Program-made: the position numbers and the translations under genes
DNA from: Trichomonas gallinae
Lineage: Eukaryota
DNA: 34,559 nucleotides
Direction of reading: 5' to 3'
NCBI GenBank assembly: GCA_008369845.1
Contig: MRSU01003466.1
Location: forward strand, 1 to 34,559
The notes under the pieces: model-generated
The model's input: the letters and a program-made list of their open reading frames with translations, nothing else
What the model was told of the DNA's origin: nothing
Database searches by the model: none
Shown: positions 16,701 through 33,779 of the stretch, one piece after another
Layout of the letters: each line of letters opens with the position of its first letter
Position numbering within the stretch: the first letter of the stretch is position 1

Positions 16701-17481
16701 TCAGTTCGAATGATGTAAGTGAAACCATGATATCAAAAATTATTAGGGAATTTTGGTTAAAGAATTTTGTAATTTGGCGTGAAGTAGGTGATACGTATTG
16801 GAACATCGTTGCAATAAACAGTGCTGATTGCTCAGCCATGTTATTTTGAATTCTGTTATCTTTGATAAGTGTTCCAACTAATTGGAAAATCTCCATAAAA
16901 TTAACGGATTTGTAATATGGCTTCGTATCTGCATTAAATAATAACGAATTTACAAATTTTGCTGCATTTTCATCTTGATTTTCAATGAAAATATTATTGA
17001 ATATGAATTCAAAATGTGATGTAGACGAAAATTCGGTGAAGAATTGTTGTTTTTTGAGGAATGCTTCAAAAAAACTCTGTGAGAATGTTAGAATTTTAGG
17101 GAGAGTTTTTGAAACTTTGCAACAGTAAACTAATATGTTACAAAAAACATGTGGATTCATCGTAAATGGTGCTATATTGTACAATTTCGATAAGACTTTC
17201 ATATAATGCATTGAAAGAGGAACATTGCCATCAATCAAATTCGAGTTTTCCAACATTTCTTTTATCAGATTTGGTATCAAATATGCGCTTGATGGTTTGA
17301 TAGATTCGAGAACAATGAAATTATCGAAACTGATTAAAAATTGCATCATTAAATTCTGTTTTTCAGCAAGATCTGGTGTTCGCCGCAGCTCTTTTAGAGT
17401 GCTTTGGATGGTTGTATAATGTTCAGACCCCATACAATCGGAAGAGCCAGCATTGCTCGGCCTCCGGAAAAACGAGGTCAT
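10798..17481 (-). CDS. BEACH-family-like (ALFY/WDFY3/neurobeachin-type) protein with degenerate BEACH, WD40 repeats and C-terminal FYVE-like Zn finger, 2227 aa
   Basis: Helical N-terminus. ConA/LamG-like beta region (LSFWFR...WNFVAMK...LALFING). PH-like beta region. BEACH-start remnant KFANGWITASDTMFIYNALTGRFFINYLNQPVFP. WD40-like repeats (LVLWEVFSG, VVCVKFD, IVSIAMH...TTSDVDSTVVLW). C-terminal CxxC-x7-CxxC-x4-CxxC-x5-CxxC. Confidence 0.8.
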   Translation of the reverse strand: MTSFFRRPSNAGSSDCMGSEHYTTIQSTLKELRRTPDLAEKQNLMMQFLISFDNFIVLESIKPSSAYLIPNLIKEMLENSNLIDGNVPLSMHYMKVLSKLYNIAPFTMNPHVFCNILVYCCKVSKTLPKILTFSQSFFEAFLKKQQFFTEFSSTSHFEFIFNNIFIENQDENAAKFVNSLLFNADTKPYYKSVNFMEIFQLVGTLIKDNRIQNNMAEQSALFIATMFQYVSPTSRQITKFFNQNSLIIFDIMVSLTSFELRTNCYKPMLYAQNEDGSSPPNLQIFKHLYKIFSETPPMQQSIVMMVCELIEKIPESITKLDSIIPIQNWMNWNTPILVDISYFLVVIDKIQPKLVLKCLPIIFNAIIRIDASIDSLIILLQVLQSQISKKYISYNALLETNFLSAFIVQLPSNLTQALYTKYDHFSPLVLSLYSLEGAISFRPSVFKSVMILDLPDLNNILTQFISISPDVSIIKMLLDYIEKTGKLSLLQSLNSVLVFSPDAAVNFVACNGIDWAFANLQLENLVELLAALVCTRRFDELESKIESLKEKHPLLNASQELLEKVIFGLNVAQCRPIRVHSLVHLLDKPMKLDPYNAWLLGSAFIEQSLKRTNDIFAVPMIDQIANRFLQSKYLKMLLERPYDLERFVNTSFDHFQLYQFYPGNTDLFFDIQFVGLSFWFRSNSSTVHSLRGFKTDVLNLTLDGSKIMIQCEDTQYSMNINLTKWNFVAMKLESTLMSTSLALFINGRVFTFQLKQKRNLLTSARFCAASKDLIFIGPAIRFTKSPPRNYNDLYGMGPHSINSISDDEIIVTPNGLDSHNFNVFIPPNLVCVPYFGFPMHFLSNSPQRTLLAALGASQNAKQFGAVFHTLLNIQDIMHYDAERFYWMLIGAFTNCHPFMSRPLFMDFLDSSSKNSKSEGALTSILLHKKMWDNVNNDILVDAIFERFDGIDFHSVANFEIFLTKKIMDNNAMPAMITSCLNNISKLPSLKNYLRALLKIGSVEIQNNIIDALTNFIDKKNFEIIIDIAPFNSLLQISLLSDVAMKAKIIHLMSLITSYKDSYIIASRSMLKVIAMCIYDENVWKDVIVMADQSHNTEVFQFAIVMVCVGASAVYRGRNELFQFVDALSRFLLNKINFVIESERCVTTLCSWLPLCLNIKTIKERLELYSIRTTQEKIPKETFEIDASNWSNYDKILGKINVEIPSEDVSCVDFLIDLLDCNNNIELKQIPSLILFINQFLIMSNQSTSCIFLLGFSTISKQRSDIFIRHFIINVFNYILTNNPKQGSIQDLFITLLFLSNSGYLSGFESDVFLQLLTYINSLLGAQGDMFSPAMATIIDNLLQNLFIHLADDKIPLIVSHIVSCFKAFIQLIDITKSIDSWYYLLMTAKANLNMFNERIAKYFPDSMVLAKKGDFGVFEAAYKSKSMDVSVMISSVNVRDVAFKEINQLAIESHKTVCIAKLSKKIFEELMFATLSSLNSEFIVLEEMVSWTSFIAEVKDAKSDIENYAPKAYTLSPRSYPFLPPRLLTPCFFSKNDVEYAGYTNKAVAEHPNNMMDLFLKIHNSDGSPLFKYPIVLTRNTQNINCVVFFFQGALDIITFATFQGEVLTLHEISSDMTRSLLNEAIQGDWGSTSIFAGRIVIHVKHSDLIYAIRTEDSYVFWGFDVGSFRMTLLPNHACELQPYINKLCEKCLDAMPPFPFIHRVKSIEEALQKFANGWITASDTMFIYNALTGRFFINYLNQPVFPNLDFPDEILDNIYRTRNKLNNAVKFTNTYLSPKSTVEKSSSRRQDLARRSSTPDIFTLHKSSITSKPAFIDVGKIVIDDSGISPLDIAIPELLKGGQRAAAMILDKMESEKEINSITSFCHKLRRLSNGLDFPVNFSPKSKSSGRKNCSSIHSFFTPQVTNIKAQNVMFEIDNIKSVNPSTQRLFCTRDLVFELDNSNLSIVVRNIRTNNIVFRRCSPTFVYASGLAVSDNGLILIVDYEFCLSRSFRVKYEGNVPVEITSLSALSLPYKPVSDISGFDCIGATVFGRTLVLWEVFSGAIHRKVELSSKVVCVKFDENSNCIWIITVSSLVIISINGTILIEKQLKQQPSAISVFHLSNSVSVRAAIIGFINGAVSIVTYRPDYSTVEIKELQSPHLKEIVSIAMHQTKYCFTTSDVDSTVVLWTPMGLSSPRLKHDILSRCPICGSIASEQCTSCSRICCKRCCMNNSCLLCAGLSYYV

Positions 17482-18758: not shown

Positions 18759-21700
18759 ATGATTGATGGTTTTCTTGATTTGTACACTGTAAACAATCTC
18801 AAGTCACCATCCATGAAGAAATTCAAGTACAGCACCGAATTCACGGGCAGTGATTTCCTTTATTTAGCATGTTATAATCTGAAAATAACCCCTTCCGAAA
18901 ACTATGTCGTTGTTTACTTCGATGATGCTTTGGTGCAGCATTTTCTGAATAATACTGACCTGTTAAAAAACCAGGAAATCGTTAAAGCTACATCAGTTTT
19001 CATCGTCGACAAGGAAGATACAGGACAAATACTCAATTCAGCGGCATTTTTCTCTCTAAAACTCCGAGTAACACAACAAACACAACAAGCACCAGCTTCG
19101 ATATTGAGCGTAGAACCACAAACTTTTCAAAATCCAAGTCCAATCGCGATTGCAGCAAATGAATATGTCGATTTCAATCTAGGAATTACAGAAGAAGAGG
19201 AAACATTTGAAGGATTAACTCAGATCCCTGTTTATTACAAATTCGAAAATAATATTCGCCCACCATGTGAGTTATTTAAGAACTTCACATTTGAAAGAAC
19301 ATTGCGTTCATGTGTTAAGCATCTTGATTTAGATCCGAACATTGATTACGCTTTATTTATATCGAGAAAAAAACATAATTTAACTCCTTTCAAAGAAATA
19401 AATTCACTAGAGAGCTATGATATTAATGAGGATACCGCGATCCATGTTTTTCCAAAGAAATTTACAGTTCACATTATAACAACTTATGTAAATCGCTTAG
19501 ATATCGAAGTAGAAGCTACAGAATCAGTTGGAGACATTGTAGAACGTATCTGCAAGCAACTTCATTTACATATTTTCCATGATTATACATTGAAAGCTGA
19601 TGATGGAAAGAAATCAATCGAATTAAATCTACAAAAACCAATAATTATGCAAACGAAACAACTAGAGTCGCTTACACTTTACAGAAGGTTCTTTATATTC
19701 TCAAGAGAAGATATAGAATCCCTTGAAAATGCAATTAATGCAATCAACGATGTGAGAAATTACATGCAATACATGAACTTATACTTCGATAAAAATGACA
19801 ACACACAGATGCTGAATATAATTTACTACGCAGTTCAGGCAATGCTCGGACCTTTGGAGGTGAAACATTTTCCTATAGATTTAGAATATTTATTCCCGAA
19901 TTTTCCTTTCCCTGATAACATAATCGAGACAGTAAAACAGAAATTCGCAAAGGTGCAGCCACCAGAGCATAGAGAAAACGCTGCTAGACTGTTTTTAAGG
20001 GAAATTAGAAATGTTCCTGGCTTCGGAGCAAAAGTTTTCAGAGCAATATATACAGATGACGAAGGTGTTGAACATATGAATGAATGCAACGTTGTAGTTA
20101 CACCAATACAGTTGATAATCGCAACAGATCAAATTGAAAAAGTGAACAAAAGCGACGATGTCTATAAATTACAGCTTACTTATAGCCAATTCCGTATAAC
20201 ATCAATGTCACAAAATGAAGTCAGCATAGAATGTCAACAAAATTATGAATCTCAATATTTCGAAATTTCTTTACAGATATTAGATGGAAGAGTCAACGAA
20301 TTCTACGAATGCGCAGTAGAAACAGCCAGAATCATCAAAGAAATCTTCACAGATAGACAAATAAGAAGGTCTCGTGGCGAACTTATATCATTTTCCGCTT
20401 CTTACGACAGAGTCGAGCTTTACACAGCTAAGGACATCAAAGATGACAGGCCACAGCTGTTTACTTACGACAGAACATTAACTGGAGCTCAACTCGCTGA
20501 AGAGGCTGCGAAAAATTTAAAGATTTGGGACGGAAGAACAGAATTTCGTGTATTATTGTACGGATCGACAGAAAACTGCGAATGGTTTGAGCCTTCACAA
20601 CTCATTGCTTCAATTGATCCTAAAAACAGATCAAAAATCATTGTTACGCCGCATTTCATCCACGCGAAAATACACTTCAGCGATGGTGGTTCTAAGGTAA
20701 TCCTCATGGATATGACAATGTATGCAGGCCGAATCGTTGAAATAATTCTTCAAAAAATTAATCATCCACTTTTCTTAGGTTTTGGCTTATATACATATGA
20801 GGATGGAAAAATAGGTGTTCCAATCTTCAACAAATATTACATTCCATCTCAAGTTTGCAAAGTTACGAATTTCTTATTCTTCAGAAGAGTTTTTGTTTTA
20901 TCAAAGGATGACACATTGTCTAAAATAACAAGAAGGCAAGTTTTAAACGATGCAATGTTCTATTTAAAGTACTTCGATGTGCAAATTTCACTTGATCGTT
21001 TCTGGGAATTAATGTTTTTGTTCAATATAGCAACAGAGAGACCAAAACAGAACAAGAAACCAGATGTCGAAGTATTTAAGAAATATCTTCCACTAACTCT
21101 CGAATATACAGTTGAATTATTCGAAAGTTTCAAGAAATTCGCTTTAAGCTATGAAAAGATTGATTCAATGAATGCATCAAAGAGATTCATGAAAGAAGTA
21201 CGTAAAATCAGCGATTTTGGCGCAATTCCATTTATGTGCATCTTCGAAGATAACGCGCCATCATCAATGATGCCAGTTCTCAAAGGCAAAGAGCGTCTTG
21301 TTCGCATTGGTCCACAAAACTTATACCTTTACAGATCAGAAACGGATATTGCGAAAATTTCTTGGTTTGAAATTCGTTACGCGAAACTTTATCAGGGCAA
21401 ATATTTGCGATTAAAACACATACCACCTAAAAGCACCGAAACTAAAATTATTTACATTACTTGCTCGGATCCTTTCCAGTTATGGCTGATAGAGTCATAC
21501 AGAGACGAATTCATCATGACACTCAAAGAGAGGAACAGAAATCACAAGAAATACTCCAAAATCATTCCTAAGATAGAAGAACAGAGAATTGCAGGCACAT
21601 ATATAGATGAAACAGGCAGACGTTTCGAGCCACAAATCGATCTTTATGTCGGCACCAATCCAGCAGTAGGTTCAAATCTCGATAAAGTTTGGTTCGAGAC

Positions 21701-24700
21701 AAGATCATCTTATCAAGACATCTACAACAAAACAATGGATGTTTTGGGCCTCGGCTCGAAAGAAAAATATATTTTGATATTGTATATCAACAGAGTTTCG
21801 TATGTTTTCGATGAAAACCACACATTGGAAGATTACACACCGCCAAGAGAGAGCTTCTTGTTTATGGTCAGAGCAGAGAGAAAAATCAGGTACTCATATC
21901 ATGGCGTTCCAAAGAAAATCACAACAAAAATGCTCGCTGACATTAAAACAGTTACATTTCTTGCGTGCGCTGAGTTTTCCATCGTTGATCCAGAGAACTT
22001 CTTCTTGTACGTCAAAACGAAGGGTGGCAACAGAGAGATGCTTGACAGAAGTTTGATGTTATGCCAGCAGACAACAGGAGGAATAGATATTTATCTGTCA
22101 AGATTTTCTTTCATCATTTCAAAAGATTACATATCTGATGTCAAGTACTTGAGAGAAGTTTATATCTGCTTGAAGGATATTGCTATGTCCAGTCCATGCT
22201 GCGTTTTCACACAGGAGAAACTCATGGCGATGATCGGTTATTCACTTCATCTTGAAGGTTTGAAGCCGTCAGACTTGGAGGATCCTCCAACTCAGTTCTA
22301 TCCAAGGCGATGGGAACCACAAAAGAACGACATGAAACTCATCAAAGAAGCATACAAGAAAACTGCTGATAAATCTCTTCCAGAAATTGTTGCGAGATAT
22401 AGAAAAGCTTGTTTGTCTCTCACTACTTTTTCAGCTGAATATTATTTCGTCAACATTGAATTGGAAGGCGGCCAGTTGATTGATGTTTTTATTGTAATCA
22501 CACGAAAACACATCTGTGTCGTCAAGCCAAAGCCAGCAACATTAATGCTCGATGAAATCGATCTTAAATCAATTTTCTCGATGCAAACAGTAAGACCGCA
22601 AATTCAACAACACAAAATGGCCTTTCTTGCAATCAACTTCGTTGATAAAAGAGGTCAGCCAACAGGAATATTAATGGAAAGCTACGAAATCACAAAAATC
22701 ACAAACTCAATTATGGCAAAAGTCGATGCAATCAAATCCAAATTGCTCAAAAATATAAGAAGAGGAGATTCAAAGAAAATCAATTCTGAATATGACATGC
22801 CAACAAAATTCATCAACGAGTTGAACACAGACTTAGAACCATACAAGATCAAGTTGCCACTTTACTTCACGAAGAAAGATATAATCGCGAAAGTTGTCAA
22901 AGAAAGAGAACTTTGTGATTTATTCGAATACGAGCTGTTGATTTCAATCGGCATCGGTAAATACGAGATCTTCGATGACAGCACACATTTATGCTACAAA
23001 TATCTCAATACTGCAACAGAAATAATTTTAATCCAGAAATATTATCTTTGCACTTTTACGGATGACAGAGGAACCGAAATTAATCTCACTGTTGACATTT
23101 CCAAGCCAGTCAAAGACATTATCGCAATACTAGGAAGTGCTTTCAACATTGATTATTATTTAGGATACATGATTGTTGACAGAAGTGGCGAAAGTGAGAA
23201 AATTTTGAGTCCACTTCAGCCTTTGGCTTCTCAAACTCAAAATTTCAAAAAGTTATATTTCACGTTGATGTTCTTCCCTCCATTCACAAAATACGACATG
23301 CAGCTTCCTCATTCGAAGAGAGAATTATTCGAATTATACAAAAACGCAGTTTTGACACAAGACTTGCATTTAGAAACAAGCAACGTGATTTTGTTCGCTT
23401 TGCTTCAGCACAACGTCGAATGCAGGAATAATCTCGAATACGACATCAAGCCGAAATCTTTCACGACTTACTTGACAAAAGGAATGGAAGATGATCCTGC
23501 TTATCTTAAAGATCTGAATGGATTCATTTCGAAATTCAAGTACATGGGCTCTGATGTTGCCGCAACGAAATACATCGAAAACGCTTTGGCATTAAGAAAA
23601 ATCGGCATTTACAAGTTCAAGATCAGTTTATTGGAACGCGAGAAAGAGAAAACTGTTTTGAGTTCATGCAAGATCGAAATTTCATACAATGGAATTGTTG
23701 CAACGAAAGGTTCTGGATCGGTTATATTCAAATGCTCATTGAGAGACATCAGATCTGTTTTGATCTGCAAAGATATCATTTATATCGGCTCAATGGACAT
23801 CACGAAACGTCAATATCACGATATTACGTTAAGAGGCGAGAAAGCACAAATGATCGAACAAATCTTAACGAGCTACTTGAAATACATGTTACCATTAGTT
23901 GACATTCGCGAGTACTATCAAGAGAACCAGAAGAAATATGTCGATCAAGTTTTCAAAGAAGATACAATCACTCTCAACATGTGCAGAAGGTTCGATAATC
24001 CGATATCGATCAAGATAACAATCGAAAAGAATAAACTAATGACCGATCTACTCAATGCTGCAGGAATATTCGCAGGAATCATTGACACAAACAATTATGT
24101 TCTTTTCGCAAGAGCTCCTGATGCAACAACTGTTTTTCCAATTGACATCAAGCAGCAAATCGTCAGCCAACTCAAAGATGACTATTATTTTTACCTCATT
24201 GCAAGAACGAAGCAAATTTATGTCCATCTTCCTGTTTACTACCTCAAAGTTCTCAAAGAAGTCGACATTAGACAAAACATCAACGACTTGATTTTCACGA
24301 TCATGAAAGAGAACAAACTTGGTATTTCAGAAAGCTTCACATTCCAAATCAGATCATCGCCGAACTTATTGTTGACTTTAGATCCATATAAACCATTGTA
24401 TTCTGATTCGATGACCATATCAGATTATTATCTTGTTAGAAGAGTTTTCATTTTCTCGTCACAATATTTCATGGATGATAATACTCTTTATCACATCCAC
24501 TACAATCTCCAAGAGTTCATTTCTAAATACAATCCAGATATTTCAGATGAAGAAAGCTCAGAATTACAAGCAATCAATGTTTTCATTCAGTCAAGAGAAA
24601 AAGATCCATACAAGAAAGAATACATGAAAAGAGTTTGCCCGGATTTGAGATTTATCACTCCAGAATCGAAAGTATATTTCACAGACAGACTCGCTGAATT

Positions 24701-27700
24701 CAAACGTGATAACGATTCAACGAAAGCTCTCTTGAGGCATCTTTACTTGATTGCGAATATTCCTGGATTCGGAACAGAAAAGTATGAGTGCATGTTTGCT
24801 GGATCTCCCGGTTTTCTTGTTATTTCTCCTTACGAAATCAAGTTTATAGATCACGAAAACAATGCAACAATGCTTGACGTTGAAAGCGAAAGCCTTAAAG
24901 AAGTAGGAATCGCGAATAATTCAATATCGATTCATTTCAGCAATAATGGACGAAATAAATCAATACAACTTTCAGCTGTTGAAAACACAATCGAAGCTTT
25001 CAGATTACTGAACTTCATCATTCACTTGATCAACAGCTCTCAAATGTTAACTTCTCTCGAATTATTAAATGAAGAACTTCAATATAACATGAATCCACCG
25101 AAACAATTGAAGCTTCAATCATCATCAGAAAAGTTTTCTTTCGATTCGAATTCAGGAGTTTCACCTTCAATTTCTTCTCCAGCTTTGGAAGTCTTCGACA
25201 CAAAAGAAGATATCGAGGATTTCCAGCCAGAAATTCTCAATTTCGATGACCTTCAAAAGACAGAAATCAACATTGTTGCAATCGATCTCGATCAAGAAAC
25301 TAAGCTACAATCTGATGGACATGATCAAAAAATTGCATTCTGGAGAATGAATAATGACATTTTCTTCTTGAGGAGGATGATTAACAATATCACAGCAATC
25401 ACAAAATATGCTGAAAATGTTAAAAGGGACAAGGAATATTGGTCTCCTGAAGATGTTAAAATGATGGAACAGAAAATCAAATCATGCATCAATGTTGATG
25501 CTAAAGTCAAAGATGAATATATCTACAAATACGAACAAATCCTCTTAAACCTCAATTTCAACAACGATAAAATGCTCAGCCAATACTTTACTGAATCAGA
25601 GGAGAGAATTTTCATCATGAGGAGCAAATTATCTGCACTCAAAGATGAACCAATCGATTTATCAAATCTGACGGAAGAAGAACAAAATTTGGTCCACGAG
25701 TTGCTTAATTTCGTCGAGAAATCTGAAAATCTTCAGCACAATTTCTTCATGAGGGCTTACGAATTCGCAATGAAAGGATTCCAGCCAGGAACAATGATCC
25801 ATATTCTCAACAAAGCCTCTTTCGAATTAAACGAAGCAATTTTGCAGTTCTGCAAAGATAGAAAAATATCAAACATCGTTGAAACAAAAGAGAAATCGAT
25901 CAACTTAATTGACCAAATTATTCCTACAATTTTCATTCCATGTATGGATTCAAACTTGAATATAGACATTTCTGTTACAGATTTCATTGATCAGTACAAT
26001 CAAATTAAGAAGGCTTACAGAGAAGTTTCAAGATACTTGCATCATATCAATGTTAAGAACTTGAACAACATCATCAATGATCATATTAACGGAGCTAAAG
26101 AATGTATTGAGCGCATCGAAGAACTTATATTGCTAATCATGCCAAGATTGACCGGAACAGATCTACACATGAGTCTTTTAATCAAATTCATGCTGGCGAA
26201 TTCTCTCAAAAGGATTGATATAGACAAACTCGATGATTTCAATCAACCAACGATAGAAATTTATTCGTCATTAATCATGAAATGCAGGAGATTGCTAAGA
26301 TTTGGAATTGATATTCATTTCGCACAAAAATCAGAGAACAAAGATTTCGTTGTTGAAGCAAACAAAGCTCTTCAAAAGCTAGACAATCATATCAAATATA
26401 TTTCATCAATCAATATCTTACCTTTGAACATAGCCAATGTTGTCAATAGACTCTATGAGCTTGAAAACTTCTTAAGTGCAGCCTGCTATATCAACAAATA
26501 CATCGAAGAAGATGTAAGAATACAGCCAATGATATTTAATATCAATAATTACATCGATATATTGAATAGTGTGGCAGCATCTACTGATACATATATATTT
26601 GTCACACAATCAATTTTCAAGATACAGGAGCTTGTTTCTAAGATTCCTGTTGAATTAGCAAAGTACGAGTCAATTATCAAAGACTATGACCTTCCTGAAA
26701 TATTGTATCATCATATGGCGATCTTGAAAGATAACATCATGCATAATTTGCTTAGATTATGCGCTAATGATGATTTCTTCTATGATGAAGACGAATTCCC
26801 ACAATTGAAAGAATTCTTAAGTGTTTCTTCTTATCTTTACAGTTTGTCACCTTCTTTGGCGACAGATACAGCTGATCCTGATCAAGCATTCACTGATTGC
26901 TTTATCACAATCAAAGAATATTTCTACAGATCAATGAATGTTCGCTCATTATTATCACAAACATATGATGAAGTAGCTGTTACAAGATTCATGAGTGATC
27001 TCAAAGGTAAACTCGACAACATCATCAAACAGATACAATACATTCATGTTTCTGATTTCTCAAATAAAATGCTACATCTTTGTGAAGAAGCCATCAACAG
27101 ATTCTTCGATTATTCTGCAACACATAAACCGAAGAAACTCAGATCAGTTCCTACACAATCACAAATCGACAAAGCAGTCGAAGTCGTTAATATGATAATC
27201 AAACGATTAGAAGAAGATATGAACACGCCAGATTTCACCACTATTTTATCGAACAAACTCACAGCGCAGGACGAAATCAAAGGATTCAAGAATCTACTCG
27301 CTAAAGTCGAAGAACAAAGAGATAAACGCAGCATTGATTTATACAAAATTTTGAAGAAAGTTGCCCAGAAAATGCATGGTTTGTCAATTAAAGTTATTTC
27401 GACATCTTTCGCATCAGAACACGAAGATTTCTTTGAACAAATCTATAAAGAAATCAAACACATCAAATCCAGTTGCACAACATCACTCAAAGATACGAAA
27501 TTGTTAATGAAAGAATTTGTTGATCATTTAATTAAATTCGAGTCAATTCCATTATTCAAATCATCTCTTGAACATATGCCGGAGATACTCAGTTTATATC
27601 AAAATGTCGAAAGCTATCCATATCCAATCGCCATGGCACACAGACAGTTCTTGAAGCACGTCAAAGTTCAACTCAAGACTTTGATGGACGATAAAACAAG

Positions 27701-30700
27701 TTTATCATTCATGCCATTCTCAGAATTCGATTCAATTCTTAAACTCTTGGATAGATTGATCACATCCATTGATTACCTTCCATATCTTAGAGTTCCACCT
27801 GAGCTGAATTTGGCATTAGTCGACTTGAATTCAAAGAGAATGTTCGAGCATGTAAAGCAACAAATCAAGCTTCTACCAGACGTATTCAACAGGCTTGTCA
27901 TCAACGGAAATATTCTCTTCTATCCAAATATGCTTGCTTACCAAGAAACAATCAGAACAGCAATCGAGAAATTCATTTCATTGACGGAAAATGAAAAATA
28001 CGACGAACTCATGGATTACTTCGAACCCTTCGACGACATCCTTCATAATCTTGAGTTGTATTTGACAATTTCTAAAGACACATTCGCTCAAAACTACTTC
28101 TTCACCTTGACGCAAAACCTCATCACATACAAGAAGTATCAGTCTTCACCTCACATTGATTCGCTCAATATTTCTATTTTCCATAAAGACATGAACGATG
28201 TTTTAGAGTCAGTTAATGAAAATGCCAATCCTAACAATTCTAAAGAGAACGAAATGCTAGCATCACAAATCAAACTTCTTATTGATATGAAAGATTACGA
28301 AGAAGCTCAAGCATCAGTTAACGAATTCTTCGATAATTACATCAAAATTTGCAAGAATTCAGAAAAGTCCGTTCATGTCAGAAAAGAAGCCTTTAGAGCC
28401 TGTTTCAGGATGCTGCCTTATTCCAACTTCAACACAGGCATTGTTATTCCTTATCTATTCGCTCCTGATTCAAACATCCAGGATCAGATCAATTCATTTA
28501 TTGAATACAACAGCTTATCAATAAGGGAAGGCCTCAAATTTATCAACAACAACATAAATTATTGGCCAATAACTGTTTGTGATAATCTTCACAGATTGCC
28601 AAGTTATATTAATGAAAACTGTCCATCTTCTGTGGCTAATTTCGTTATGTTAAGAGCTTTGGCAAAGTTATCTAACGAGAAAACAATCATCAACAACTTA
28701 AGAATAGTTTTGAACAAGATTTTACGTGATGCATTACACAAGATGCCATTCTCCAATGAATTATTTTTGGATCTTCTTGATAACTTCAATACTTTCGACG
28801 TTTCAAACTACATTTTCGGAATATTAGTCGAAATAAATGCAAATATCAGCTTCGATCAGAATCCTTATTTCGATCCAACAGAATTCTATTTCGGAATGTA
28901 TCAGGCTGTTGCTTGCTACGCTGATTTATTCTACTGCTTGTCATCTAAATTAGTCACATTGTTAGATAAGCACAAAGAAATTGATGCAAGAGTCAAACAG
29001 TTCATTACATCAGCAACAGATTGCATTTTATTCGGAATCAGAACAGTTCACATCAGACCGCGTTCATTGATAACATTAGTTGAGTTAGTCAAAGATTATG
29101 AAGACAATCTTCACTCATCATTCATCGAAAGACTTGAAGATGCAAACATGAAGTCGCAACTGAATTCAATAATCAACGACTTCAAATATCTCAGAAGTTT
29201 CTTGCTTCATTCATTATATACTGCGAAGCCATCAGATTCGATTCTGCCTCCATTCATCTTGACAATTGTTTATTCAATGAAGTATTGCGTCAAGAGGATG
29301 AACGCAGATTCATGCAGGCTAATTAAAGCTGTGATTGGATCAGCATTAGATTTCTTGGAAGTATCATTGAGCAAGTCAAAGCTGCAGGAAATCATTTTGC
29401 TACTCAGAAACATACAAACAGAATTCACCAAACTTAGTGAAACTAACACAGAAAATTTCATCAAATCAGTCAATGAAATGTGTGACAAGATTCTCCAAGA
29501 CAAGGATTCGATTTCTCAATACAGAGAGAATTGTGCGAAAATCTTCAAGTCACCAACAAAAGATCCCAGGTTGGCAATTTTGGATACGAAAGTCAAAGCT
29601 TTACCAGATCTCAAAGGCAAAGAAAAAATCAAAGAATTCCCAATACCAAAGAGATTATTCAAGTCAATCAGATCAATACAGACATACGAGCAAAACGAGT
29701 TAATCGACGCGCCAATGATTGCATCGAAAGTCTTGAAGCGAGGATTGATTCATTCGCAAAACTTGTTGATAACAATTCAGTCAATTGCTGCAATGATTAT
29801 ATTAGCACAAGAGCGTCCTGAGTCATTCATTACAATTGCTCAGCTCCAGGCTCTACAAACAGCAGCGCCAACAGATATCGCTGTTATATATGATTCGTTA
29901 ATTTTGAAAGTTAAATCTTCATCAACGATGAGCGAATTTATTAAATTAACAAGAAAGATAACAAGAGAAGAAGCAATTTATCTTCATCTCTCTTTGTTGC
30001 TTCAATGCAAGACAAAGATAGAAGTCGATAACAAAGATAGTGAACAAATTATTGATCTGATCAATCTATCAAAGCTTACAACAATTCCTGAGAATGTTGA
30101 GCATTTCAATATTATCGATAAATATCAGCAAAAGTTAACAGATCATTACTCGAATCTTGTTGAAGTGATGAATATCTTGATAATGCATTATTTGATTGCC
30201 CTTAATTTCCATGTATTGCCAAAAGTTCCTGATGAGATTTCAAAGAGCAAACTCAGAATTACAGCAACAACAATCAAATCTATTTTGAATTTGATATCAT
30301 TCCCGATGATATTCATTTCAGCGATCATATCTTTGGATAGAGAAACAGTTGCAATCATCGACAAATTTATCATAAAATGTTTAGAATATTTCAGGAAACA
30401 AAACACAATTAAATCATTCGACGAAATGACAGAACCAGTCATTTATCAGTGGAATGATATTAACAGCGAGATGAACATTGATGTCATATCTGATGTTGTT
30501 AGAATTCTCAATTCACAGTTTATTCTCTACAGCAACATGACATTAGTTTTCTCAGTCGCATCAAAGATTTTGACCGATATTAATGTTTCTACGACTGTTA
30601 TAACGGAAATCGACTTAGATTATTCAGTTGATACACTTAAATCCATCTTGATTGATAATGATTACAACACTTTCGTTACAAAACAAACGAGCCACAAGGC

Positions 30701-33700
30701 AGCTTTGTTATGCACGATTTATTCTTTCATGGAGAAATCATTCGAAAAAGGCATCACTTCAGATTTATCCATTCTACCTTTAATCACACAAACAGAAGAT
30801 TATGTCACTAAATTCAGGACAATGAAGACTTATTACATCATGAACAAATCCAGGAAGTGCTTAATCAACCAATTCAACGAATATTCAATCATAGCAAGAG
30901 ACATTTTGAGGATCAATAAGTTCATGCCTGTTTTGATGAAGGCAAGAATAATACATCCAAATGCTTCACCATTAGGCGACATAGAGAAGAGAGTTGCAAT
31001 CACAGAGAACTTCAACATCAAAGACCAGCCAATAGCAGTTCTCAATGCTTACTTGAAGTTCTTCTATCCAGGGATGCTCACAGATCAGTTTATTACAGAG
31101 TTCTCCAAGACTCAACAATTGTTAGTGAGAATAATGTTATCATATCTCGACGGAAAAGAATCTACATTTATTGGCATCGATGACATGATGTCTTACATGA
31201 AGATAATCAAGCAGCAGAAGCTCCAGAATTCAGTTAGAACGCACATAAGGAAATTCATGCTAGAAAGATGGAAGAGGTTCGATCCACTGGAAATCATGGA
31301 CTTAAAGATGCCAACTGCAATAGAACAAAACAACGCATTCTTGAAATTATCGCAAAACATTTTAGATCAGACTCCAGTTGATTTCTATCCAGAGCAGATG
31401 ATTTTGGAAAGATTGGCAATGATGGCATCAGATATAATTGCAAGCGATGTTACAACAATCGACCAATATATCACTTATCTCAAAAATACAATGCTCGAAT
31501 CAATTCCATTAAATGAAATCAAAGATGATCCACTAGATGCACATCAGATAGAAAATGAACTAAAATTATTAGAAGACAATGAAAGAATTTTGTTATTGAA
31601 GGAAGATTTAATATTAGTATATTCTGATATAAGCAAGAGGCCACATGATTTGAACCAAATCAATTTAACATTCTTGGACATTTTCATCGGAATTCAGAAC
31701 ATTTTCTTGATTTTATCTTCGCAAACAGATGCCCAAAACTCATCAGTCATAAGTCAACTGAGCCATCATGAGATTTCTGTTCTTTATGTGATGCTCAAAC
31801 TCTTCTTCATGGCTCCACTTCAAAAGTCGTCAATTAATATGAATGATTTCTTGAAATTCGAAGGATTCAATCAGACATTAAATGCAATGATAGCCCAGAA
31901 CTCAGAAGTCGATAAATTAATGACAAAATTCAAGTATTCGATCACAGAGATTGCTCCAATTACATTAAATGTACAATCAGAGTCGAAGAAGAATTTGATC
32001 GAAAGGTTATCATTCGAAGCATTGACTGTCTTAGAAGAAATAATTTTGTCAAGAGGACCAGCATCAACAGAACTATTAGAGAAACTTTTCGCTAAAGCAG
32101 CTCAACTAATTCCTTTCTTTGTCGACAGCAAGGACATCAAGATACAAGAAATGCTTGACAATATCTATGAAATCGCTCAGTTCACAATGAATATTCCTCA
32201 TATAAATGAAAATTCTGTCTATCAGATCTACAAATCTGCCCTTTCTAACTTCTTCTTGTTGCTTTTGTCATTATGCAAGCGCTTCATATCGAACAGAGTC
32301 AAGTTTTACGAGATGTATTTGAACTCAATTGAGTCGTACAATATGGAGCAGTTGTTTGTTTCTATTCATCACGTATCAGAAGATTTGCCTGAATATCAAA
32401 TTGCTCCATATAGAGCCAGAATTTTGGACAGATTCATTAATAACAGAAAGATGACAGAAGATGATTTCCACAGCGTTTCATCGCCTTCCAAGCAGATAAG
32501 AGAGTTATTGAGGCAGAGCACAATAGATGTCTTCGATGCTTATCAAAATGTCGAGAAACCATTTGAGCCATTCCAGGATTATGATATTGAAGAAGAAGAT
32601 TCAATACTCAAACTCTGTGTTTTCGTTCTCAAACTTTGCACAACAAAGATTCCACGCTCTAAAGCGAGAATCATCAAACAAGTCATCCAGAATGTTGCGA
32701 TTTTGTTCTATTTGAGAAATTATGATTTGGCTGATTTTGCTAAATCAATTGTTAATTTCTTGAGACAAACATTGACAGAATTCATTGATCTTAAAGAAGA
32801 AGACAGTGAAAGCTTCTTGTTAAGATCAACTGCTGGCGTTTTCCTGTTCCTATGCTTGATGACAGCAAACGACAGATCAACAACAGACCAATATCTAAAA
32901 CGTGAAAGAGTTGCTTCGAATTTGGTCAATTTCGAAGGCTATTTCAAAGAATTCTCTCAGTCACTTGATATCAATCACATCCAGACGTTCAACACTTGCC
33001 TCGGCAGCCTTAAACGCTGCTACTCCGTCAAACAAAACGTTGAACAACTTTTGAACATTGTTTTGTTGAGTATTGATCCATTGAATGAATTGCACCACGA
33101 AATCCCGAACGATTACAGAGAGAAGCCAACAGTTAAAGCTATACAAGAATCACAAGATCGTTGCCAGGCAGAAATAGAAGCTATAATTACACAGAACTCG
33201 ACATACAAGTCAAGCATCGTCAAACACATCACGAATCACATTTCATTGCTTATGGCTTTCTCATTCTACGAATACGATGACTCACGAATACAGTTAATCG
33301 CACTAGCTTCAACACTCTATAATCAGATCAACACAAATCTGATGAATAACAGTGAGGCATCTTTGAATGATTTCTTGCAGCTTTCTGATTCTATGATCAA
33401 CGCAATGAATATCATTCAATCATACAAAGACCCAGATCTAACAAAAGACACACGCGAGTGTTTGACAGCTCTGCACATCGCTGAGAGAGACTTCTTGATC
33501 GAGAAGAATCAGAAGAACTTAGTTGCTGTGCACGCGATGAGGCAAATGGGAGAAGCGATAATGAATGGAAAAGTCTCGCCGAAGAAGGCGATGGAGACAA
33601 TAGAAGCCATCACATCATTCGGATTCGTTTTCATGATGATCATTGTCATCAGTGAAACATGCGACATTGATCAGTCACTCCTTAGCAAGGCTAAACTCAT

Positions 33701-33779
33701 CAGAGACATCTTACAAAACATTCCACCAGCTTTGAAACTTTCATGCGAGAAAATTTTATTCATGAATACACGTAATTAA
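18759..33779 (+). CDS. Giant (5006 aa) talin-like protein: five tandem talin-type FERM heads plus a long alpha-helical rod
   Basis: 15-kb uninterrupted ORF. First ATG at 18759 (MIDGFLDLY); the track start 18654 is GTG and the extension is just T-rich promoter. Recurring F1-end motifs (YRRFFIFS, FRRVFVLS, LSRFSFII, FTLMFFPP, VRRVFIFS) and F2/F3 junctions (VPGFGAKVF, ISDFGAIPF, LTTFSAEYY, LRKIGIYKF, IPGFGTEKY) occur at ~1.2-kb spacing. These match talin LRRKFFYS and LKTYGVSFF. The CDS itself is well supported; the domain call is by eye. Confidence 0.85.
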   Translation: MIDGFLDLYTVNNLKSPSMKKFKYSTEFTGSDFLYLACYNLKITPSENYVVVYFDDALVQHFLNNTDLLKNQEIVKATSVFIVDKEDTGQILNSAAFFSLKLRVTQQTQQAPASILSVEPQTFQNPSPIAIAANEYVDFNLGITEEEETFEGLTQIPVYYKFENNIRPPCELFKNFTFERTLRSCVKHLDLDPNIDYALFISRKKHNLTPFKEINSLESYDINEDTAIHVFPKKFTVHIITTYVNRLDIEVEATESVGDIVERICKQLHLHIFHDYTLKADDGKKSIELNLQKPIIMQTKQLESLTLYRRFFIFSREDIESLENAINAINDVRNYMQYMNLYFDKNDNTQMLNIIYYAVQAMLGPLEVKHFPIDLEYLFPNFPFPDNIIETVKQKFAKVQPPEHRENAARLFLREIRNVPGFGAKVFRAIYTDDEGVEHMNECNVVVTPIQLIIATDQIEKVNKSDDVYKLQLTYSQFRITSMSQNEVSIECQQNYESQYFEISLQILDGRVNEFYECAVETARIIKEIFTDRQIRRSRGELISFSASYDRVELYTAKDIKDDRPQLFTYDRTLTGAQLAEEAAKNLKIWDGRTEFRVLLYGSTENCEWFEPSQLIASIDPKNRSKIIVTPHFIHAKIHFSDGGSKVILMDMTMYAGRIVEIILQKINHPLFLGFGLYTYEDGKIGVPIFNKYYIPSQVCKVTNFLFFRRVFVLSKDDTLSKITRRQVLNDAMFYLKYFDVQISLDRFWELMFLFNIATERPKQNKKPDVEVFKKYLPLTLEYTVELFESFKKFALSYEKIDSMNASKRFMKEVRKISDFGAIPFMCIFEDNAPSSMMPVLKGKERLVRIGPQNLYLYRSETDIAKISWFEIRYAKLYQGKYLRLKHIPPKSTETKIIYITCSDPFQLWLIESYRDEFIMTLKERNRNHKKYSKIIPKIEEQRIAGTYIDETGRRFEPQIDLYVGTNPAVGSNLDKVWFETRSSYQDIYNKTMDVLGLGSKEKYILILYINRVSYVFDENHTLEDYTPPRESFLFMVRAERKIRYSYHGVPKKITTKMLADIKTVTFLACAEFSIVDPENFFLYVKTKGGNREMLDRSLMLCQQTTGGIDIYLSRFSFIISKDYISDVKYLREVYICLKDIAMSSPCCVFTQEKLMAMIGYSLHLEGLKPSDLEDPPTQFYPRRWEPQKNDMKLIKEAYKKTADKSLPEIVARYRKACLSLTTFSAEYYFVNIELEGGQLIDVFIVITRKHICVVKPKPATLMLDEIDLKSIFSMQTVRPQIQQHKMAFLAINFVDKRGQPTGILMESYEITKITNSIMAKVDAIKSKLLKNIRRGDSKKINSEYDMPTKFINELNTDLEPYKIKLPLYFTKKDIIAKVVKERELCDLFEYELLISIGIGKYEIFDDSTHLCYKYLNTATEIILIQKYYLCTFTDDRGTEINLTVDISKPVKDIIAILGSAFNIDYYLGYMIVDRSGESEKILSPLQPLASQTQNFKKLYFTLMFFPPFTKYDMQLPHSKRELFELYKNAVLTQDLHLETSNVILFALLQHNVECRNNLEYDIKPKSFTTYLTKGMEDDPAYLKDLNGFISKFKYMGSDVAATKYIENALALRKIGIYKFKISLLEREKEKTVLSSCKIEISYNGIVATKGSGSVIFKCSLRDIRSVLICKDIIYIGSMDITKRQYHDITLRGEKAQMIEQILTSYLKYMLPLVDIREYYQENQKKYVDQVFKEDTITLNMCRRFDNPISIKITIEKNKLMTDLLNAAGIFAGIIDTNNYVLFARAPDATTVFPIDIKQQIVSQLKDDYYFYLIARTKQIYVHLPVYYLKVLKEVDIRQNINDLIFTIMKENKLGISESFTFQIRSSPNLLLTLDPYKPLYSDSMTISDYYLVRRVFIFSSQYFMDDNTLYHIHYNLQEFISKYNPDISDEESSELQAINVFIQSREKDPYKKEYMKRVCPDLRFITPESKVYFTDRLAEFKRDNDSTKALLRHLYLIANIPGFGTEKYECMFAGSPGFLVISPYEIKFIDHENNATMLDVESESLKEVGIANNSISIHFSNNGRNKSIQLSAVENTIEAFRLLNFIIHLINSSQMLTSLELLNEELQYNMNPPKQLKLQSSSEKFSFDSNSGVSPSISSPALEVFDTKEDIEDFQPEILNFDDLQKTEINIVAIDLDQETKLQSDGHDQKIAFWRMNNDIFFLRRMINNITAITKYAENVKRDKEYWSPEDVKMMEQKIKSCINVDAKVKDEYIYKYEQILLNLNFNNDKMLSQYFTESEERIFIMRSKLSALKDEPIDLSNLTEEEQNLVHELLNFVEKSENLQHNFFMRAYEFAMKGFQPGTMIHILNKASFELNEAILQFCKDRKISNIVETKEKSINLIDQIIPTIFIPCMDSNLNIDISVTDFIDQYNQIKKAYREVSRYLHHINVKNLNNIINDHINGAKECIERIEELILLIMPRLTGTDLHMSLLIKFMLANSLKRIDIDKLDDFNQPTIEIYSSLIMKCRRLLRFGIDIHFAQKSENKDFVVEANKALQKLDNHIKYISSINILPLNIANVVNRLYELENFLSAACYINKYIEEDVRIQPMIFNINNYIDILNSVAASTDTYIFVTQSIFKIQELVSKIPVELAKYESIIKDYDLPEILYHHMAILKDNIMHNLLRLCANDDFFYDEDEFPQLKEFLSVSSYLYSLSPSLATDTADPDQAFTDCFITIKEYFYRSMNVRSLLSQTYDEVAVTRFMSDLKGKLDNIIKQIQYIHVSDFSNKMLHLCEEAINRFFDYSATHKPKKLRSVPTQSQIDKAVEVVNMIIKRLEEDMNTPDFTTILSNKLTAQDEIKGFKNLLAKVEEQRDKRSIDLYKILKKVAQKMHGLSIKVISTSFASEHEDFFEQIYKEIKHIKSSCTTSLKDTKLLMKEFVDHLIKFESIPLFKSSLEHMPEILSLYQNVESYPYPIAMAHRQFLKHVKVQLKTLMDDKTSLSFMPFSEFDSILKLLDRLITSIDYLPYLRVPPELNLALVDLNSKRMFEHVKQQIKLLPDVFNRLVINGNILFYPNMLAYQETIRTAIEKFISLTENEKYDELMDYFEPFDDILHNLELYLTISKDTFAQNYFFTLTQNLITYKKYQSSPHIDSLNISIFHKDMNDVLESVNENANPNNSKENEMLASQIKLLIDMKDYEEAQASVNEFFDNYIKICKNSEKSVHVRKEAFRACFRMLPYSNFNTGIVIPYLFAPDSNIQDQINSFIEYNSLSIREGLKFINNNINYWPITVCDNLHRLPSYINENCPSSVANFVMLRALAKLSNEKTIINNLRIVLNKILRDALHKMPFSNELFLDLLDNFNTFDVSNYIFGILVEINANISFDQNPYFDPTEFYFGMYQAVACYADLFYCLSSKLVTLLDKHKEIDARVKQFITSATDCILFGIRTVHIRPRSLITLVELVKDYEDNLHSSFIERLEDANMKSQLNSIINDFKYLRSFLLHSLYTAKPSDSILPPFILTIVYSMKYCVKRMNADSCRLIKAVIGSALDFLEVSLSKSKLQEIILLLRNIQTEFTKLSETNTENFIKSVNEMCDKILQDKDSISQYRENCAKIFKSPTKDPRLAILDTKVKALPDLKGKEKIKEFPIPKRLFKSIRSIQTYEQNELIDAPMIASKVLKRGLIHSQNLLITIQSIAAMIILAQERPESFITIAQLQALQTAAPTDIAVIYDSLILKVKSSSTMSEFIKLTRKITREEAIYLHLSLLLQCKTKIEVDNKDSEQIIDLINLSKLTTIPENVEHFNIIDKYQQKLTDHYSNLVEVMNILIMHYLIALNFHVLPKVPDEISKSKLRITATTIKSILNLISFPMIFISAIISLDRETVAIIDKFIIKCLEYFRKQNTIKSFDEMTEPVIYQWNDINSEMNIDVISDVVRILNSQFILYSNMTLVFSVASKILTDINVSTTVITEIDLDYSVDTLKSILIDNDYNTFVTKQTSHKAALLCTIYSFMEKSFEKGITSDLSILPLITQTEDYVTKFRTMKTYYIMNKSRKCLINQFNEYSIIARDILRINKFMPVLMKARIIHPNASPLGDIEKRVAITENFNIKDQPIAVLNAYLKFFYPGMLTDQFITEFSKTQQLLVRIMLSYLDGKESTFIGIDDMMSYMKIIKQQKLQNSVRTHIRKFMLERWKRFDPLEIMDLKMPTAIEQNNAFLKLSQNILDQTPVDFYPEQMILERLAMMASDIIASDVTTIDQYITYLKNTMLESIPLNEIKDDPLDAHQIENELKLLEDNERILLLKEDLILVYSDISKRPHDLNQINLTFLDIFIGIQNIFLILSSQTDAQNSSVISQLSHHEISVLYVMLKLFFMAPLQKSSINMNDFLKFEGFNQTLNAMIAQNSEVDKLMTKFKYSITEIAPITLNVQSESKKNLIERLSFEALTVLEEIILSRGPASTELLEKLFAKAAQLIPFFVDSKDIKIQEMLDNIYEIAQFTMNIPHINENSVYQIYKSALSNFFLLLLSLCKRFISNRVKFYEMYLNSIESYNMEQLFVSIHHVSEDLPEYQIAPYRARILDRFINNRKMTEDDFHSVSSPSKQIRELLRQSTIDVFDAYQNVEKPFEPFQDYDIEEEDSILKLCVFVLKLCTTKIPRSKARIIKQVIQNVAILFYLRNYDLADFAKSIVNFLRQTLTEFIDLKEEDSESFLLRSTAGVFLFLCLMTANDRSTTDQYLKRERVASNLVNFEGYFKEFSQSLDINHIQTFNTCLGSLKRCYSVKQNVEQLLNIVLLSIDPLNELHHEIPNDYREKPTVKAIQESQDRCQAEIEAIITQNSTYKSSIVKHITNHISLLMAFSFYEYDDSRIQLIALASTLYNQINTNLMNNSEASLNDFLQLSDSMINAMNIIQSYKDPDLTKDTRECLTALHIAERDFLIEKNQKNLVAVHAMRQMGEAIMNGKVSPKKAMETIEAITSFGFVFMMIIVISETCDIDQSLLSKAKLIRDILQNIPPALKLSCEKILFMNTRN

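What the first reader, a model, noticed from the sequence alone, without database searches (positions are those of the whole stretch)
19221..25035. Five tandem talin-type head modules (F0-F1-F2-F3 FERM) in one giant protein
Seen: the first ~2100 aa repeat with a ~395-aa period. Approximate modules: 19221-20350, 20406-21530, 21630-22740, 22795-23900, 23961-25035. Each has a ubiquitin-like F0; an F1 (e.g. TDDRGTEINLTVDISKPVKDIIAILG, FSDGGSKVILMDMT) ending in an RR[FV]F[IV]-type motif (~19680, 20880, 22095, 23259, 24435); a helical F2 ending A..[RK][FY]...[PD/T]xFG (~20013, 21208, 22419, 23592, 24759); and a PH-like F3 ending in a helix (e.g. EKAQMIEQILTSYLKYML, cf. talin EGEQIAQLIAGYIDIIL). Known: animal talin has one F0-F3 head followed by a helical rod, and Dictyostelium FrmA has two talin-like FERMs. 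Inference: a five-headed talin-like molecule would be a multivalent membrane/receptor-tail adaptor. In an organism without recognised integrins it could define a non-canonical adhesion or amoeboid-transformation system. The copies are highly diverged with no nucleotide-level repeat visible, which implies ancient duplication.
Basis: partly seen in the sequence, partly recalled or inferred. Interest (0 to 1): 0.9.

Follow-up and report, generated by a model that had tools for sequence, protein, structure and literature searches.

The report
Five-headed talins in trichomonad parasites
This trichomonad gene encodes a 5,006-residue protein with five copies of the head of the adhesion protein talin in a row, one of a family of one- and five-headed talin-like proteins in trichomonads and their relatives that likely tie the cell membrane to the cytoskeleton.

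Summary
Confirmed and extended. One intronless ORF (18759-33779, 5,006 aa) holds a lone N-terminal F0 domain, five complete F0-F1-F2-F3 heads (period about 396 aa) and a rod of about 2,700 aa. Each head position matches talin heads over its full length (hhalign 99.6-99.9%). The best PDB hits are talin-1 heads.

The protein is the ortholog of T. vaginalis TVAG_107970. It belongs to a parabasalid family of 22 distinct five-headed proteins (Trichomonas, Tritrichomonas and Histomonas among the named ones) and 8 single-headed, talin-sized proteins with a homologous rod. Heads group by position, so the five-fold duplication is old.

Most family members end in an I/LWEQ-like bundle plus a conserved last helix (moderate support). 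This paralog lacks that end. Talin's integrin-binding tryptophan is absent from all 110 tandem heads. The modelled rod is a string of long-helix bundles, with talin among the tied best fold matches.

Likely role: a multivalent membrane-cortex adaptor. A five-headed paralog was 2.5-fold enriched in more-adherent T. vaginalis (weak data). I found no description of the architecture in the open literature searched. A 2023 review says talin is unidentified outside Amoebozoa and Opisthokonts.

The parts
18759..33779 (+). Single intronless ORF, 5,006 aa; ortholog of T. vaginalis TVAG_107970
   Evidence: P0002 is 42% identical over aa 1-2150 and 36% over the full length; name
18765..19034 (+). Lone N-terminal F0-like ubiquitin-fold domain (aa 3-about 92), also present in other five-headed family members
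   Evidence: leave-out HMM E 2e-10; an alignment of 20 N-termini matches the F0 of heads 1-5 at 97.3-99.0% and talin heads at 95.2%
19188..20369 (+). Head 1 (F0-F1-F2-F3), aa 144-537
   Evidence: 208 bits leave-out HMM; hhalign to talin heads 99.8%; AF2 pLDDT 62-86 over F0/F1 and under 50 for F2/F3; Foldseek top hits kindlin and talin heads, E about 1e-10
20388..21545 (+). Head 2, aa 544-929; best conserved and most basic head
   Evidence: 210 bits, hhalign 99.7%; 51% identical to the T. vaginalis ortholog; net charge +11, family mean +5.5
21603..22766 (+). Head 3, aa 949-1336
   Evidence: 157 bits, hhalign 99.9%
22767..23921 (+). Head 4, aa 1337-1721
   Evidence: 167 bits, hhalign 99.8%
23943..25061 (+). 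Head 5, aa 1729-2101; acidic
   Evidence: 112 bits, hhalign 99.6%; net charge -8, family mean -8.3
25062..25655 (+). Head-rod linker (Ser/Pro/acidic first half), least conserved segment
   Evidence: sequence; 27% identity to the ortholog
25656..32273 (+). Rod of helical bundles, collinear with the rods of the other five-headed proteins (aa 2315-4505)
   Evidence: hhalign 99.4%, E 7e-22, reversed control 0.8%. AF2 of aa 2300-3149: pLDDT 76.8, pTM 0.70, all helical, most helices 20-30 aa. VIA-align: full-length talin 8vdo Z 14.2, 399 aligned, rmsd 24.0; talin R1R2 Z 13.0, 117 aligned, rmsd 2.6; tied with unrelated four-helix bundles
32274..33776 (+). C-terminal 500 aa, conserved with the ortholog (35%) but without the family's I/LWEQ-like bundle and terminal helix

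Best explanation
This is a talin-derived protein with five complete FERM heads, an extra F0 domain and a long helical-bundle rod, and it likely works as a multivalent adaptor that holds the plasma membrane to the cell cortex during amoeboid spreading and adhesion. Shown by computation: the architecture; homology of each head to talin F0-F3; the single old five-fold duplication; homology of its rod to the family rod; and absence of the family's I/LWEQ-like end. Inferred from talin biology: the six F0 and five F1 ubiquitin-fold domains would read Rap/Ras-type GTPases. The F2-F3 lobes, chiefly the basic head 2, would bind acidic lipids and the tails of surface proteins, so one molecule could gather several receptors without dimerising. 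The rod would act as a stretchable spacer and scaffold. The integrin-type tryptophan is gone, so the tails bound are probably not integrin-like NPxY tails. This paralog lacks the actin-binding and dimerising end, so it would reach actin through internal rod sites or partners. Sister paralogs such as TVAG_180570 and the single-headed TVAG_101030 would do the direct talin-like job.
For: A profile of the five heads ranks talin heads first in the PDB (E 9e-9; top 14 rows are talin), with the first non-talin at E 0.0018. Each head position aligns to talin heads over 319-337 columns at 99.6-99.9%. Eight single-headed relatives are 2,481-2,782 aa long, with the head at the N-terminus; talin-1 6r9t is 2,547 aa. 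Their rods are homologous to the five-headed rods (hhalign 100%). The family's last 200 aa match I/LWEQ regions of Pfam-defined talins: hhalign 77%, E 2e-5, reversed 0.2%; HMM hits E 2.6e-7 and 6e-5 land on the I/LWEQ of 2 of 10 such talins, best reversed hit 0.004. In the rod model, 5 of the top 15 VIA-align rows are talin, and the match to full-length talin runs in order over talin residues 660-1356. The five-headed paralog TVAG_180570 was 2.49-fold enriched in surface/membrane fractions of more-adherent parasites, alongside coactosin, Arp2/3 and gelsolin (PMC7885099 Table 1). All five heads are kept at 36-51% identity to the ortholog.
Against: There are no localisation or binding data for this gene; TVAG_107970 is not in that paper's supplements. 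The paralog's enrichment has adjusted P 0.075 and rests on 2 peptides, and clathrin heavy chains were enriched too. The talin F3 tryptophan is W in 13 of 16 talin heads but in 0 of 110 tandem heads; this protein has T, A, M, V, V at that site. Whole parabasalid rods do not match talin rods by profile (2.1% or less). Neither Pfam nor the PDB profile search detects talin rod or I/LWEQ families in them. The terminal helix alone scores only 6.6% against the talins' last helix. Z about 14 is what unrelated helical bundles reach, the multi-bundle match has rmsd 24, and Foldseek found nothing at E 0.001 or better for the rod. F2/F3 of head 1 were modelled only at pLDDT under 50.
Confidence: 0.55

Rival explanations
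1. It is an endocytic or endosomal cargo adaptor, like SNX17 or Sla2/HIP1R. The heads gather FDNPx[YF]-type tails of surface proteins and the rod links them to clathrin or actin.
For: Twelve of a group of 15 TvBspA proteins carry an NPxY-like tail signal (PMC2843621 passages). SNX-FERM proteins are reported absent from parabasalids (PMC11267458 passages). Clathrin heavy chains were enriched with TVAG_180570. The Atlas ranks an SNX17-type FERM cluster first for head 2 (0.91, with talin at 0.88). Sla2's REND-THATCH region appears in the fold list at Z 9.9.
Against: There is no PX or ANTH domain. The heads carry F0, and the single-headed relatives have talin's size and layout. The NPxY-binding tryptophan is absent. 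The Atlas scores are all close together and carry no E-value.
Confidence: 0.2
2. It is a structural anchor for a parabasalid-specific membrane-cytoskeleton junction (recurrent flagellum/undulating membrane, costa, parabasal fibres) and has no part in host adhesion.
For: The five-headed form is fixed in Trichomonas, Tritrichomonas and Histomonas. This paralog has lost the actin-type C-terminus. That these fibres are parabasalid-specific is recalled.
Against: There is no positive datum. The one proteomic mention of a family member is with actin regulators in an adherence-selected membrane fraction.
Confidence: 0.12
3. Only one or two heads bind anything; the others are folded spacers.
For: Heads 1 and 5 are net acidic here (-16, -8) and head 5 is acidic family-wide. 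The tryptophan site varies. Heads 3-5 are barely more conserved than the rod (36-42% against 30-43%).
Against: All 23 database or window proteins of 4,797 aa or more keep exactly five full heads. Each position forms its own group in the trees, which fits position-specific roles.
Confidence: 0.15
4. The family is not talin. A talin/kindlin-type head became fused independently to an unrelated helical rod.
For: Whole rods show no profile match to talin rods. Pfam finds no talin rod families. Foldseek ranks kindlin-2 level with talin for head 1. A long branch separates parabasalid heads from talin heads.
Against: The single-headed members have talin's length and layout. The C-terminal match falls specifically on the I/LWEQ region. 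The rod bundles match talin in order. F2 has no kindlin-type PH insertion, since the heads align to talin heads without a large gap.
Confidence: 0.13

Closest known systems
Talin-1/2 (animals); talin A/B (Dictyostelium)
   Same: Four-lobed F0-F1-F2-F3 head; linker; long rod of four/five-helix-type bundles; in most family members an I/LWEQ-like bundle followed by a terminal helix.
   Different: Five heads plus a lone F0 instead of one head. The F3 tryptophan is lost. There is no long F1 loop: heads have about 12-13 residues at that site, as do the 16 protist-type talins used here; the animal F1 loop is recalled. The family rod carries an insertion of roughly 700 aa relative to the single-headed members. 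It is far less alanine-rich (4.8% here against 24-26% in two talins). This paralog has no I/LWEQ-like end.
Dictyostelium FrmA (multi-FERM adhesion-turnover protein)
   Same: More than one talin-type FERM in one chain. Role in turnover of adhesion sites (PMC9197732 passages). That it has two FERMs is recalled.
   Different: An unnamed two-FERM protein in my set (P0078) groups with talins, not with the parabasalid heads, so that duplication looks independent. FrmA itself was not in hand.
Kindlins (fermitins)
   Same: F0-F3 four-lobed FERM; tied with talin in Foldseek for head 1.
   Different: Kindlins have a PH domain inside F2 and no rod (recalled). The sequence profile match is far weaker (E 0.003 against 9e-9).
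T. vaginalis TVAG_107970, TVAG_180570, TVAG_101030, TVAG_329890; T. foetus TRFO_05648, TRFO_11406; Histomonas GO595_000580
   Same: The family itself. Databases call them hypothetical or 'FERM domain-containing'; one name for TVAG_180570 begins 'cytoskeletal anchoring'.
   Different: Head number and talin affinity do not appear in those names. Of the six locus ids searched (two forms for TVAG_107970; the Histomonas id was not searched), only TVAG_180570 occurs in a paper, as a table row.

Membership tests
Talin | Four-lobed FERM head with F0 | tested here: met
   Five times: hhalign 99.6-99.9% over 319-337 columns; PDB profile best hits are talin heads, starting in F0
Talin | A single head at the N-terminus | tested here: not met
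   Five heads plus a lone F0; met by 8 single-headed relatives
Talin | Rod of four- and five-helix bundles homologous to R1-R13 | tested here: inconclusive
   Bundles predicted; talin tied for best fold match at a Z common for bundles, rmsd 24 over 399 residues; no sequence-level match
Talin | C-terminal I/LWEQ (THATCH) actin-binding domain, in the window's protein | tested here: not met
   Last 200 aa: 0.1% against talin C-termini and 2.3% against the family's; no HMM hit; last 560 aa 4.0%. The query profile had only two sequences, so extreme divergence is not excluded
Talin | C-terminal I/LWEQ domain, in the other family members | tested here: inconclusive
   hhalign 77% (E 2e-5) against a reversed control of 0.2%; HMM hits on 2 of 10 talin I/LWEQ regions; no Pfam I_LWEQ hit
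Talin | Terminal dimerisation helix | tested here: inconclusive
   A conserved last helix is present in 24 of 24 other full-length members and absent from the window's protein and its ortholog; alone it scores 6.6% against the talins' last helix
Talin | F3 tryptophan of the NPxY-binding strand (W359 of talin-1; number and role recalled) | tested here: not met
   W in 13 of 16 talins and aromatic in 16 of 16; W within 2 columns in 0 of 110 tandem heads; F or Y at the site in 13 of 22 head-2 and 13 of 22 head-5 sequences
Talin | Binds receptor tails, acidic lipids, Rap1, F-actin and vinculin; unfolds under force | not testable with these tools
   Needs bench work; no genome was held to look for vinculin or integrin
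Kindlin | PH domain inserted in F2, no rod | tested here: not met
   Heads of 373-394 aa align to talin heads without a large insertion; a 2,700-aa rod follows
SNX17/27/31 (SNX-FERM) | PX domain before a three-lobed FERM | tested here: not met
   No PX hit in Pfam; each FERM is preceded by an F0

The most novel reading that the evidence does not exclude
Parabasalids carry true talins, both one-headed and five-headed, so a talin-based membrane-to-actin clutch exists in Metamonada, far outside animals, fungi and amoebae. The five-headed form is a built-in receptor-clustering device that lets trichomonads spread on and grip host cells without integrins or myosin II. This gene is an old paralog specialised as a non-dimerising scaffold.
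Probability: 0.45. Interest if true: 0.88.

Novelty: new variant of a known kind. Interest (0 to 1): 0.74.

Why it matters
A 2023 review states that talin has not been identified outside Amoebozoa and Opisthokonts. It also says that how T. vaginalis crawls without myosin II is a mystery (PMC10846614 passages). T. vaginalis has at least four talin-like genes, two five-headed and two one-headed. These give named candidates for the link between surface adhesins and actin in parasites whose disease depends on adherence, and they can be tagged and knocked out. A five-headed talin is also a natural experiment on head valency. If inheritance is vertical, talin's origin moves close to the eukaryote root. 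A talin homolog has been reported in the brown alga Ectocarpus (bioRxiv 10.1101/2020.04.29.069435 passage), so talin outside Amorphea is not wholly unprecedented.

Tried and rejected
Sequence searches. No genome is held for the window, so partners (vinculin, integrins, Rap1) could not be sought. The word-index search with the head alignment among 661-2,000-aa proteins found nothing, and the search for short rod relatives found nothing. Pfam on the rod gave nothing useful. The PDB profile search with single-headed members hit heads only, with no talin rod structure. A PDB profile search with the rod alignment was not possible because the alignment was over the column limit; two smaller alignments were still too wide.

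Structure. Foldseek on the rod model gave no match at E 0.001 or better. The ESM Atlas for aa 3082-5006 gave low recognition and generic hits. AF2 of head 1 with 5 sequences was confident for F0/F1 only; VIA-align then matched ubiquitin-fold domains. The homodimer prediction of the last 212 aa of TVAG_180570 gave no answer (score 0.12, mark 0.32, alignment not used).

Expression and earlier notes. Sequencing runs: no RNA holder listed, and one DNA run had a small share of words that I did not lay. The scan's earlier findings gave nothing by words or by sequence.

Hypotheses. Rejected: recent, lineage-specific duplication of the heads (AU p 5e-52). Rejected: a decayed gene (open frame; every segment 27-51% identical to the ortholog). 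Not resolved: which head is nearest the single-headed proteins (head 5 plus single heads neither found nor rejected, AU p 0.28). A membrane anchor is unlikely but was only roughly checked: the best 19-residue hydropathy windows reach about 2.0 at aa 3841 and 4947, inside predicted amphipathic rod. One paper id recalled from memory was not held.
Full report
Observation. The window is AT-rich eukaryotic DNA (GC 24-47% in 1-kb windows) with intronless genes. The finding lies in one ORF, 18759-33779 (+), of 5,006 aa. Pfam sees only sub-threshold ubiquitin-like hits in 3 of the 5 modules. BLASTP of the protein against itself shows no repeat, but 5 of 10 module pairs score z of 4 or more against shuffles. 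A profile of the five modules ranks talin heads first among PDB sequences: E 9e-9, profile positions 41-321 of 373, first non-talin at E 0.0018. A profile built from other proteins' heads only finds five full domains (112-210 bits, period about 396 aa) and a lone F0 at the N-terminus (E 2e-10), with nothing in the reversed protein. Alignments of 22 sequences per head position match an alignment of 16 talin-type heads at 99.6-99.9% from F0 to the last helix of F3. AlphaFold2 of head 1 with five sequences was confident for F0/F1 only. Foldseek nonetheless ranked kindlin and talin heads first (E about 1e-10, low TM-scores).

Family. The ortholog is T. vaginalis TVAG_107970 (4,984 aa), so the window comes from another trichomonad (inference from 36-42% identity). 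The search of 1.84 billion representatives gave 103 proteins at E 0.001 or better. Among these, the proteins, the cluster members and the window's protein, 27 rows (22 after removing near copies) have five full heads. All 23 rows of 4,797 aa or more have exactly five. I looked up names for 20 of the 103 plus the three proteins. The named five-headed ones are TVAG_107970, TVAG_180570, T. foetus TRFO_05648 and Histomonas GO595_000580. The named single-headed ones are TVAG_101030, TVAG_329890 and TRFO_11406; the rest are unnamed. Eight single-headed proteins are 2,481-2,782 aa long. The lower-scoring hits include unnamed proteins with the Pfam talin architecture. I used 16 of them as 'talins'; their organisms are unknown to me. 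That the unnamed five-headed proteins are also parabasalid is inferred from the trees.

Age of the repeat. In a tree of 86 heads (12 of the 22 five-headed proteins, 8 single-headed, 18 outgroup rows), each position formed one group with SH-aLRT 96-99. In a careful tree of 49 rows, positions 1, 2, 4 and 5 had 99-100/97-99, but position 3 only 72/93. A quick tree of all 145 heads showed the same pattern with a few strays, mainly P0024. Forcing the window's five heads together is rejected (AU p 5e-52). The five-fold duplication therefore predates the paralogs and the split of Trichomonas, Tritrichomonas and Histomonas. The window's protein forms a subfamily with TVAG_107970 and two incomplete unnamed proteins (P0015, P0019). 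Animal talin, kindlin and FrmA were not in these trees, so the family's origin is open.

Rod. BLASTP links the window's rod only to its ortholog among full-length rods, and weakly to P0019. By profile comparison it is collinear with the other five-headed rods over aa 2315-4505 (99.4%, E 7e-22; reversed control 0.8%), and those rods match the single-headed rods at 100%. Five-headed rods carry an insertion of roughly 700 aa. AlphaFold2 of aa 2300-3149 used 20 sequences, with the register checked against hhalign (459 of 732 positions identical). It gave pLDDT 76.8, pTM 0.70 and a chain of mostly 20-30-residue helices. Foldseek found nothing significant. VIA-align against 48,161 chains put full-length talin (Z 14.2, 399 aligned, rmsd 24.0, talin 660-1356) level with pectin methylesterase inhibitor (Z 14.2, 122 aligned, rmsd 3.1). 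Five talin entries were in the top 15. Such Z values are common for helical bundles, so this is suggestive only. Whole rods do not match talin rods by sequence (2.1% or less).

C-terminus. Twenty-four other full-length members (16 five-headed, 8 single-headed) end in a conserved helix preceded by a helical bundle. That region matches talin I/LWEQ regions moderately: hhalign 77%, E 2e-5, and HMM hits on the I/LWEQ of 2 of 10 talins. The last helix alone scores 6.6%, and Pfam does not call I_LWEQ. The window's protein and its ortholog lack the motif and the match. After the last aligned position they have about 500 aa left, against 737 in TVAG_180570. This fits loss of roughly the terminal 200 aa (inference). 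The region is still 35% identical between the two species.

Binding sites. The F3 tryptophan recalled as talin-1 W359 is W in 13 of 16 talin heads and in 0 of 110 tandem heads; heads 2 and 5 often keep F or Y. Head 2 is basic, and head 5 is acidic across the family. No long F1 loop is present, as in the protist-type talins used.

Function. There is no direct evidence for this gene. TVAG_180570 appears as a 'FERM domain protein' 2.49-fold enriched in surface/membrane fractions of parasites selected for adherence, along with coactosin, Arp2/3, gelsolin and clathrin (PMC7885099, passages and section 7 read). Its supplement gives adjusted P 0.075 and 2 peptides, and does not list TVAG_107970, TVAG_101030 or TVAG_329890 (9 files searched). 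By analogy with Dictyostelium, where talins bind non-integrin Sib receptors and Rap1 (PMC9197732 passages), I favour a multivalent cortex adaptor (0.55). The alternatives are an endocytic adaptor (0.2; passages of PMC2843621 and PMC11267458), a mastigont anchor (0.12), mostly passive heads (0.15, not exclusive) and an independent fusion (0.13).

Prior knowledge. Ten full-text searches of open PubMed Central and bioRxiv turned up no description of a five-headed talin or of talin in parabasalids. I saw listings for all, though only the top 30 of 178. I read passages of PMC10846614, PMC9197732, PMC2651865, PMC13164389, PMC3748353, PMC7885099, PMC2843621, PMC11267458, and bioRxiv 2020.06.12.142943 and 2020.04.29.069435. 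PMC10846614 says talin has not been identified outside Amoebozoa and Opisthokonts but may be present elsewhere. The adhesome preprint mentions a talin homolog in Ectocarpus and has no mention of Trichomonas or metamonads in its main text; its supplements are closed. Subscription papers (for example the T. vaginalis actin-machinery and adhesome-origin papers) were not searchable and might mention these genes. Automatic database names already note a FERM domain.

Verdict. The feature is real and well supported as an architecture. It is a new variant of the talin plan. Talin orthology of the family is likely (about 0.8) but rests on moderate rod and C-terminal evidence. The role of this divergent paralog is inferred. 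Interest 0.74.

Noticed in passing
window 242-1621 (-): GDA1/CD39 nucleoside triphosphate diphosphohydrolase with a C-terminal hydrophobic stretch (Pfam E 1e-50); an ordinary ecto-NTPDase-like gene.
   Followed up: partly
window 2492-5491 (-): 999-aa coiled-coil protein with no Pfam hit. Part of it reminds me of CEP290-type transition-zone proteins (recalled, untested).
   Followed up: no
window about 7246-8382 (+): Probable surface protein with GGAI-type repeats and a C-terminal hydrophobic anchor, resembling Pmp-like beta-helix proteins (recalled); no Pfam hit. The true start is probably downstream of the first ATG at 7000.
   Followed up: partly
window 10798-17481 (-): 2,227-aa protein with weak WD40 hits near the end and a terminal cysteine cluster. 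It looks like a degenerate BEACH-family protein (recalled), but Pfam finds no BEACH domain.
   Followed up: partly
window 8899-10047 (-): Kelch-repeat protein (Pfam E 3e-45).
   Followed up: partly
window 6027-6842 (+): About 250-aa ORF with no Pfam match.
   Followed up: partly
P0105 (TVAG_180570) aa about 3700-4400: Five-headed rods carry an insertion of roughly 700 aa that the single-headed rods lack; its fold was not examined.
   Followed up: no
P0018, P0020, P0003 N-termini: The spacer between the lone F0 and head 1 varies from about 50 to about 750 aa across the family and is Pro/Ser-rich in P0003.
   Followed up: no
P0063, P0064, P0066, P0079, P0083, P0094, P0100, P0102: Unnamed short talins (1,327-1,934 aa) with a full head and I/LWEQ but a shortened rod; organisms unknown.
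   Followed up: no
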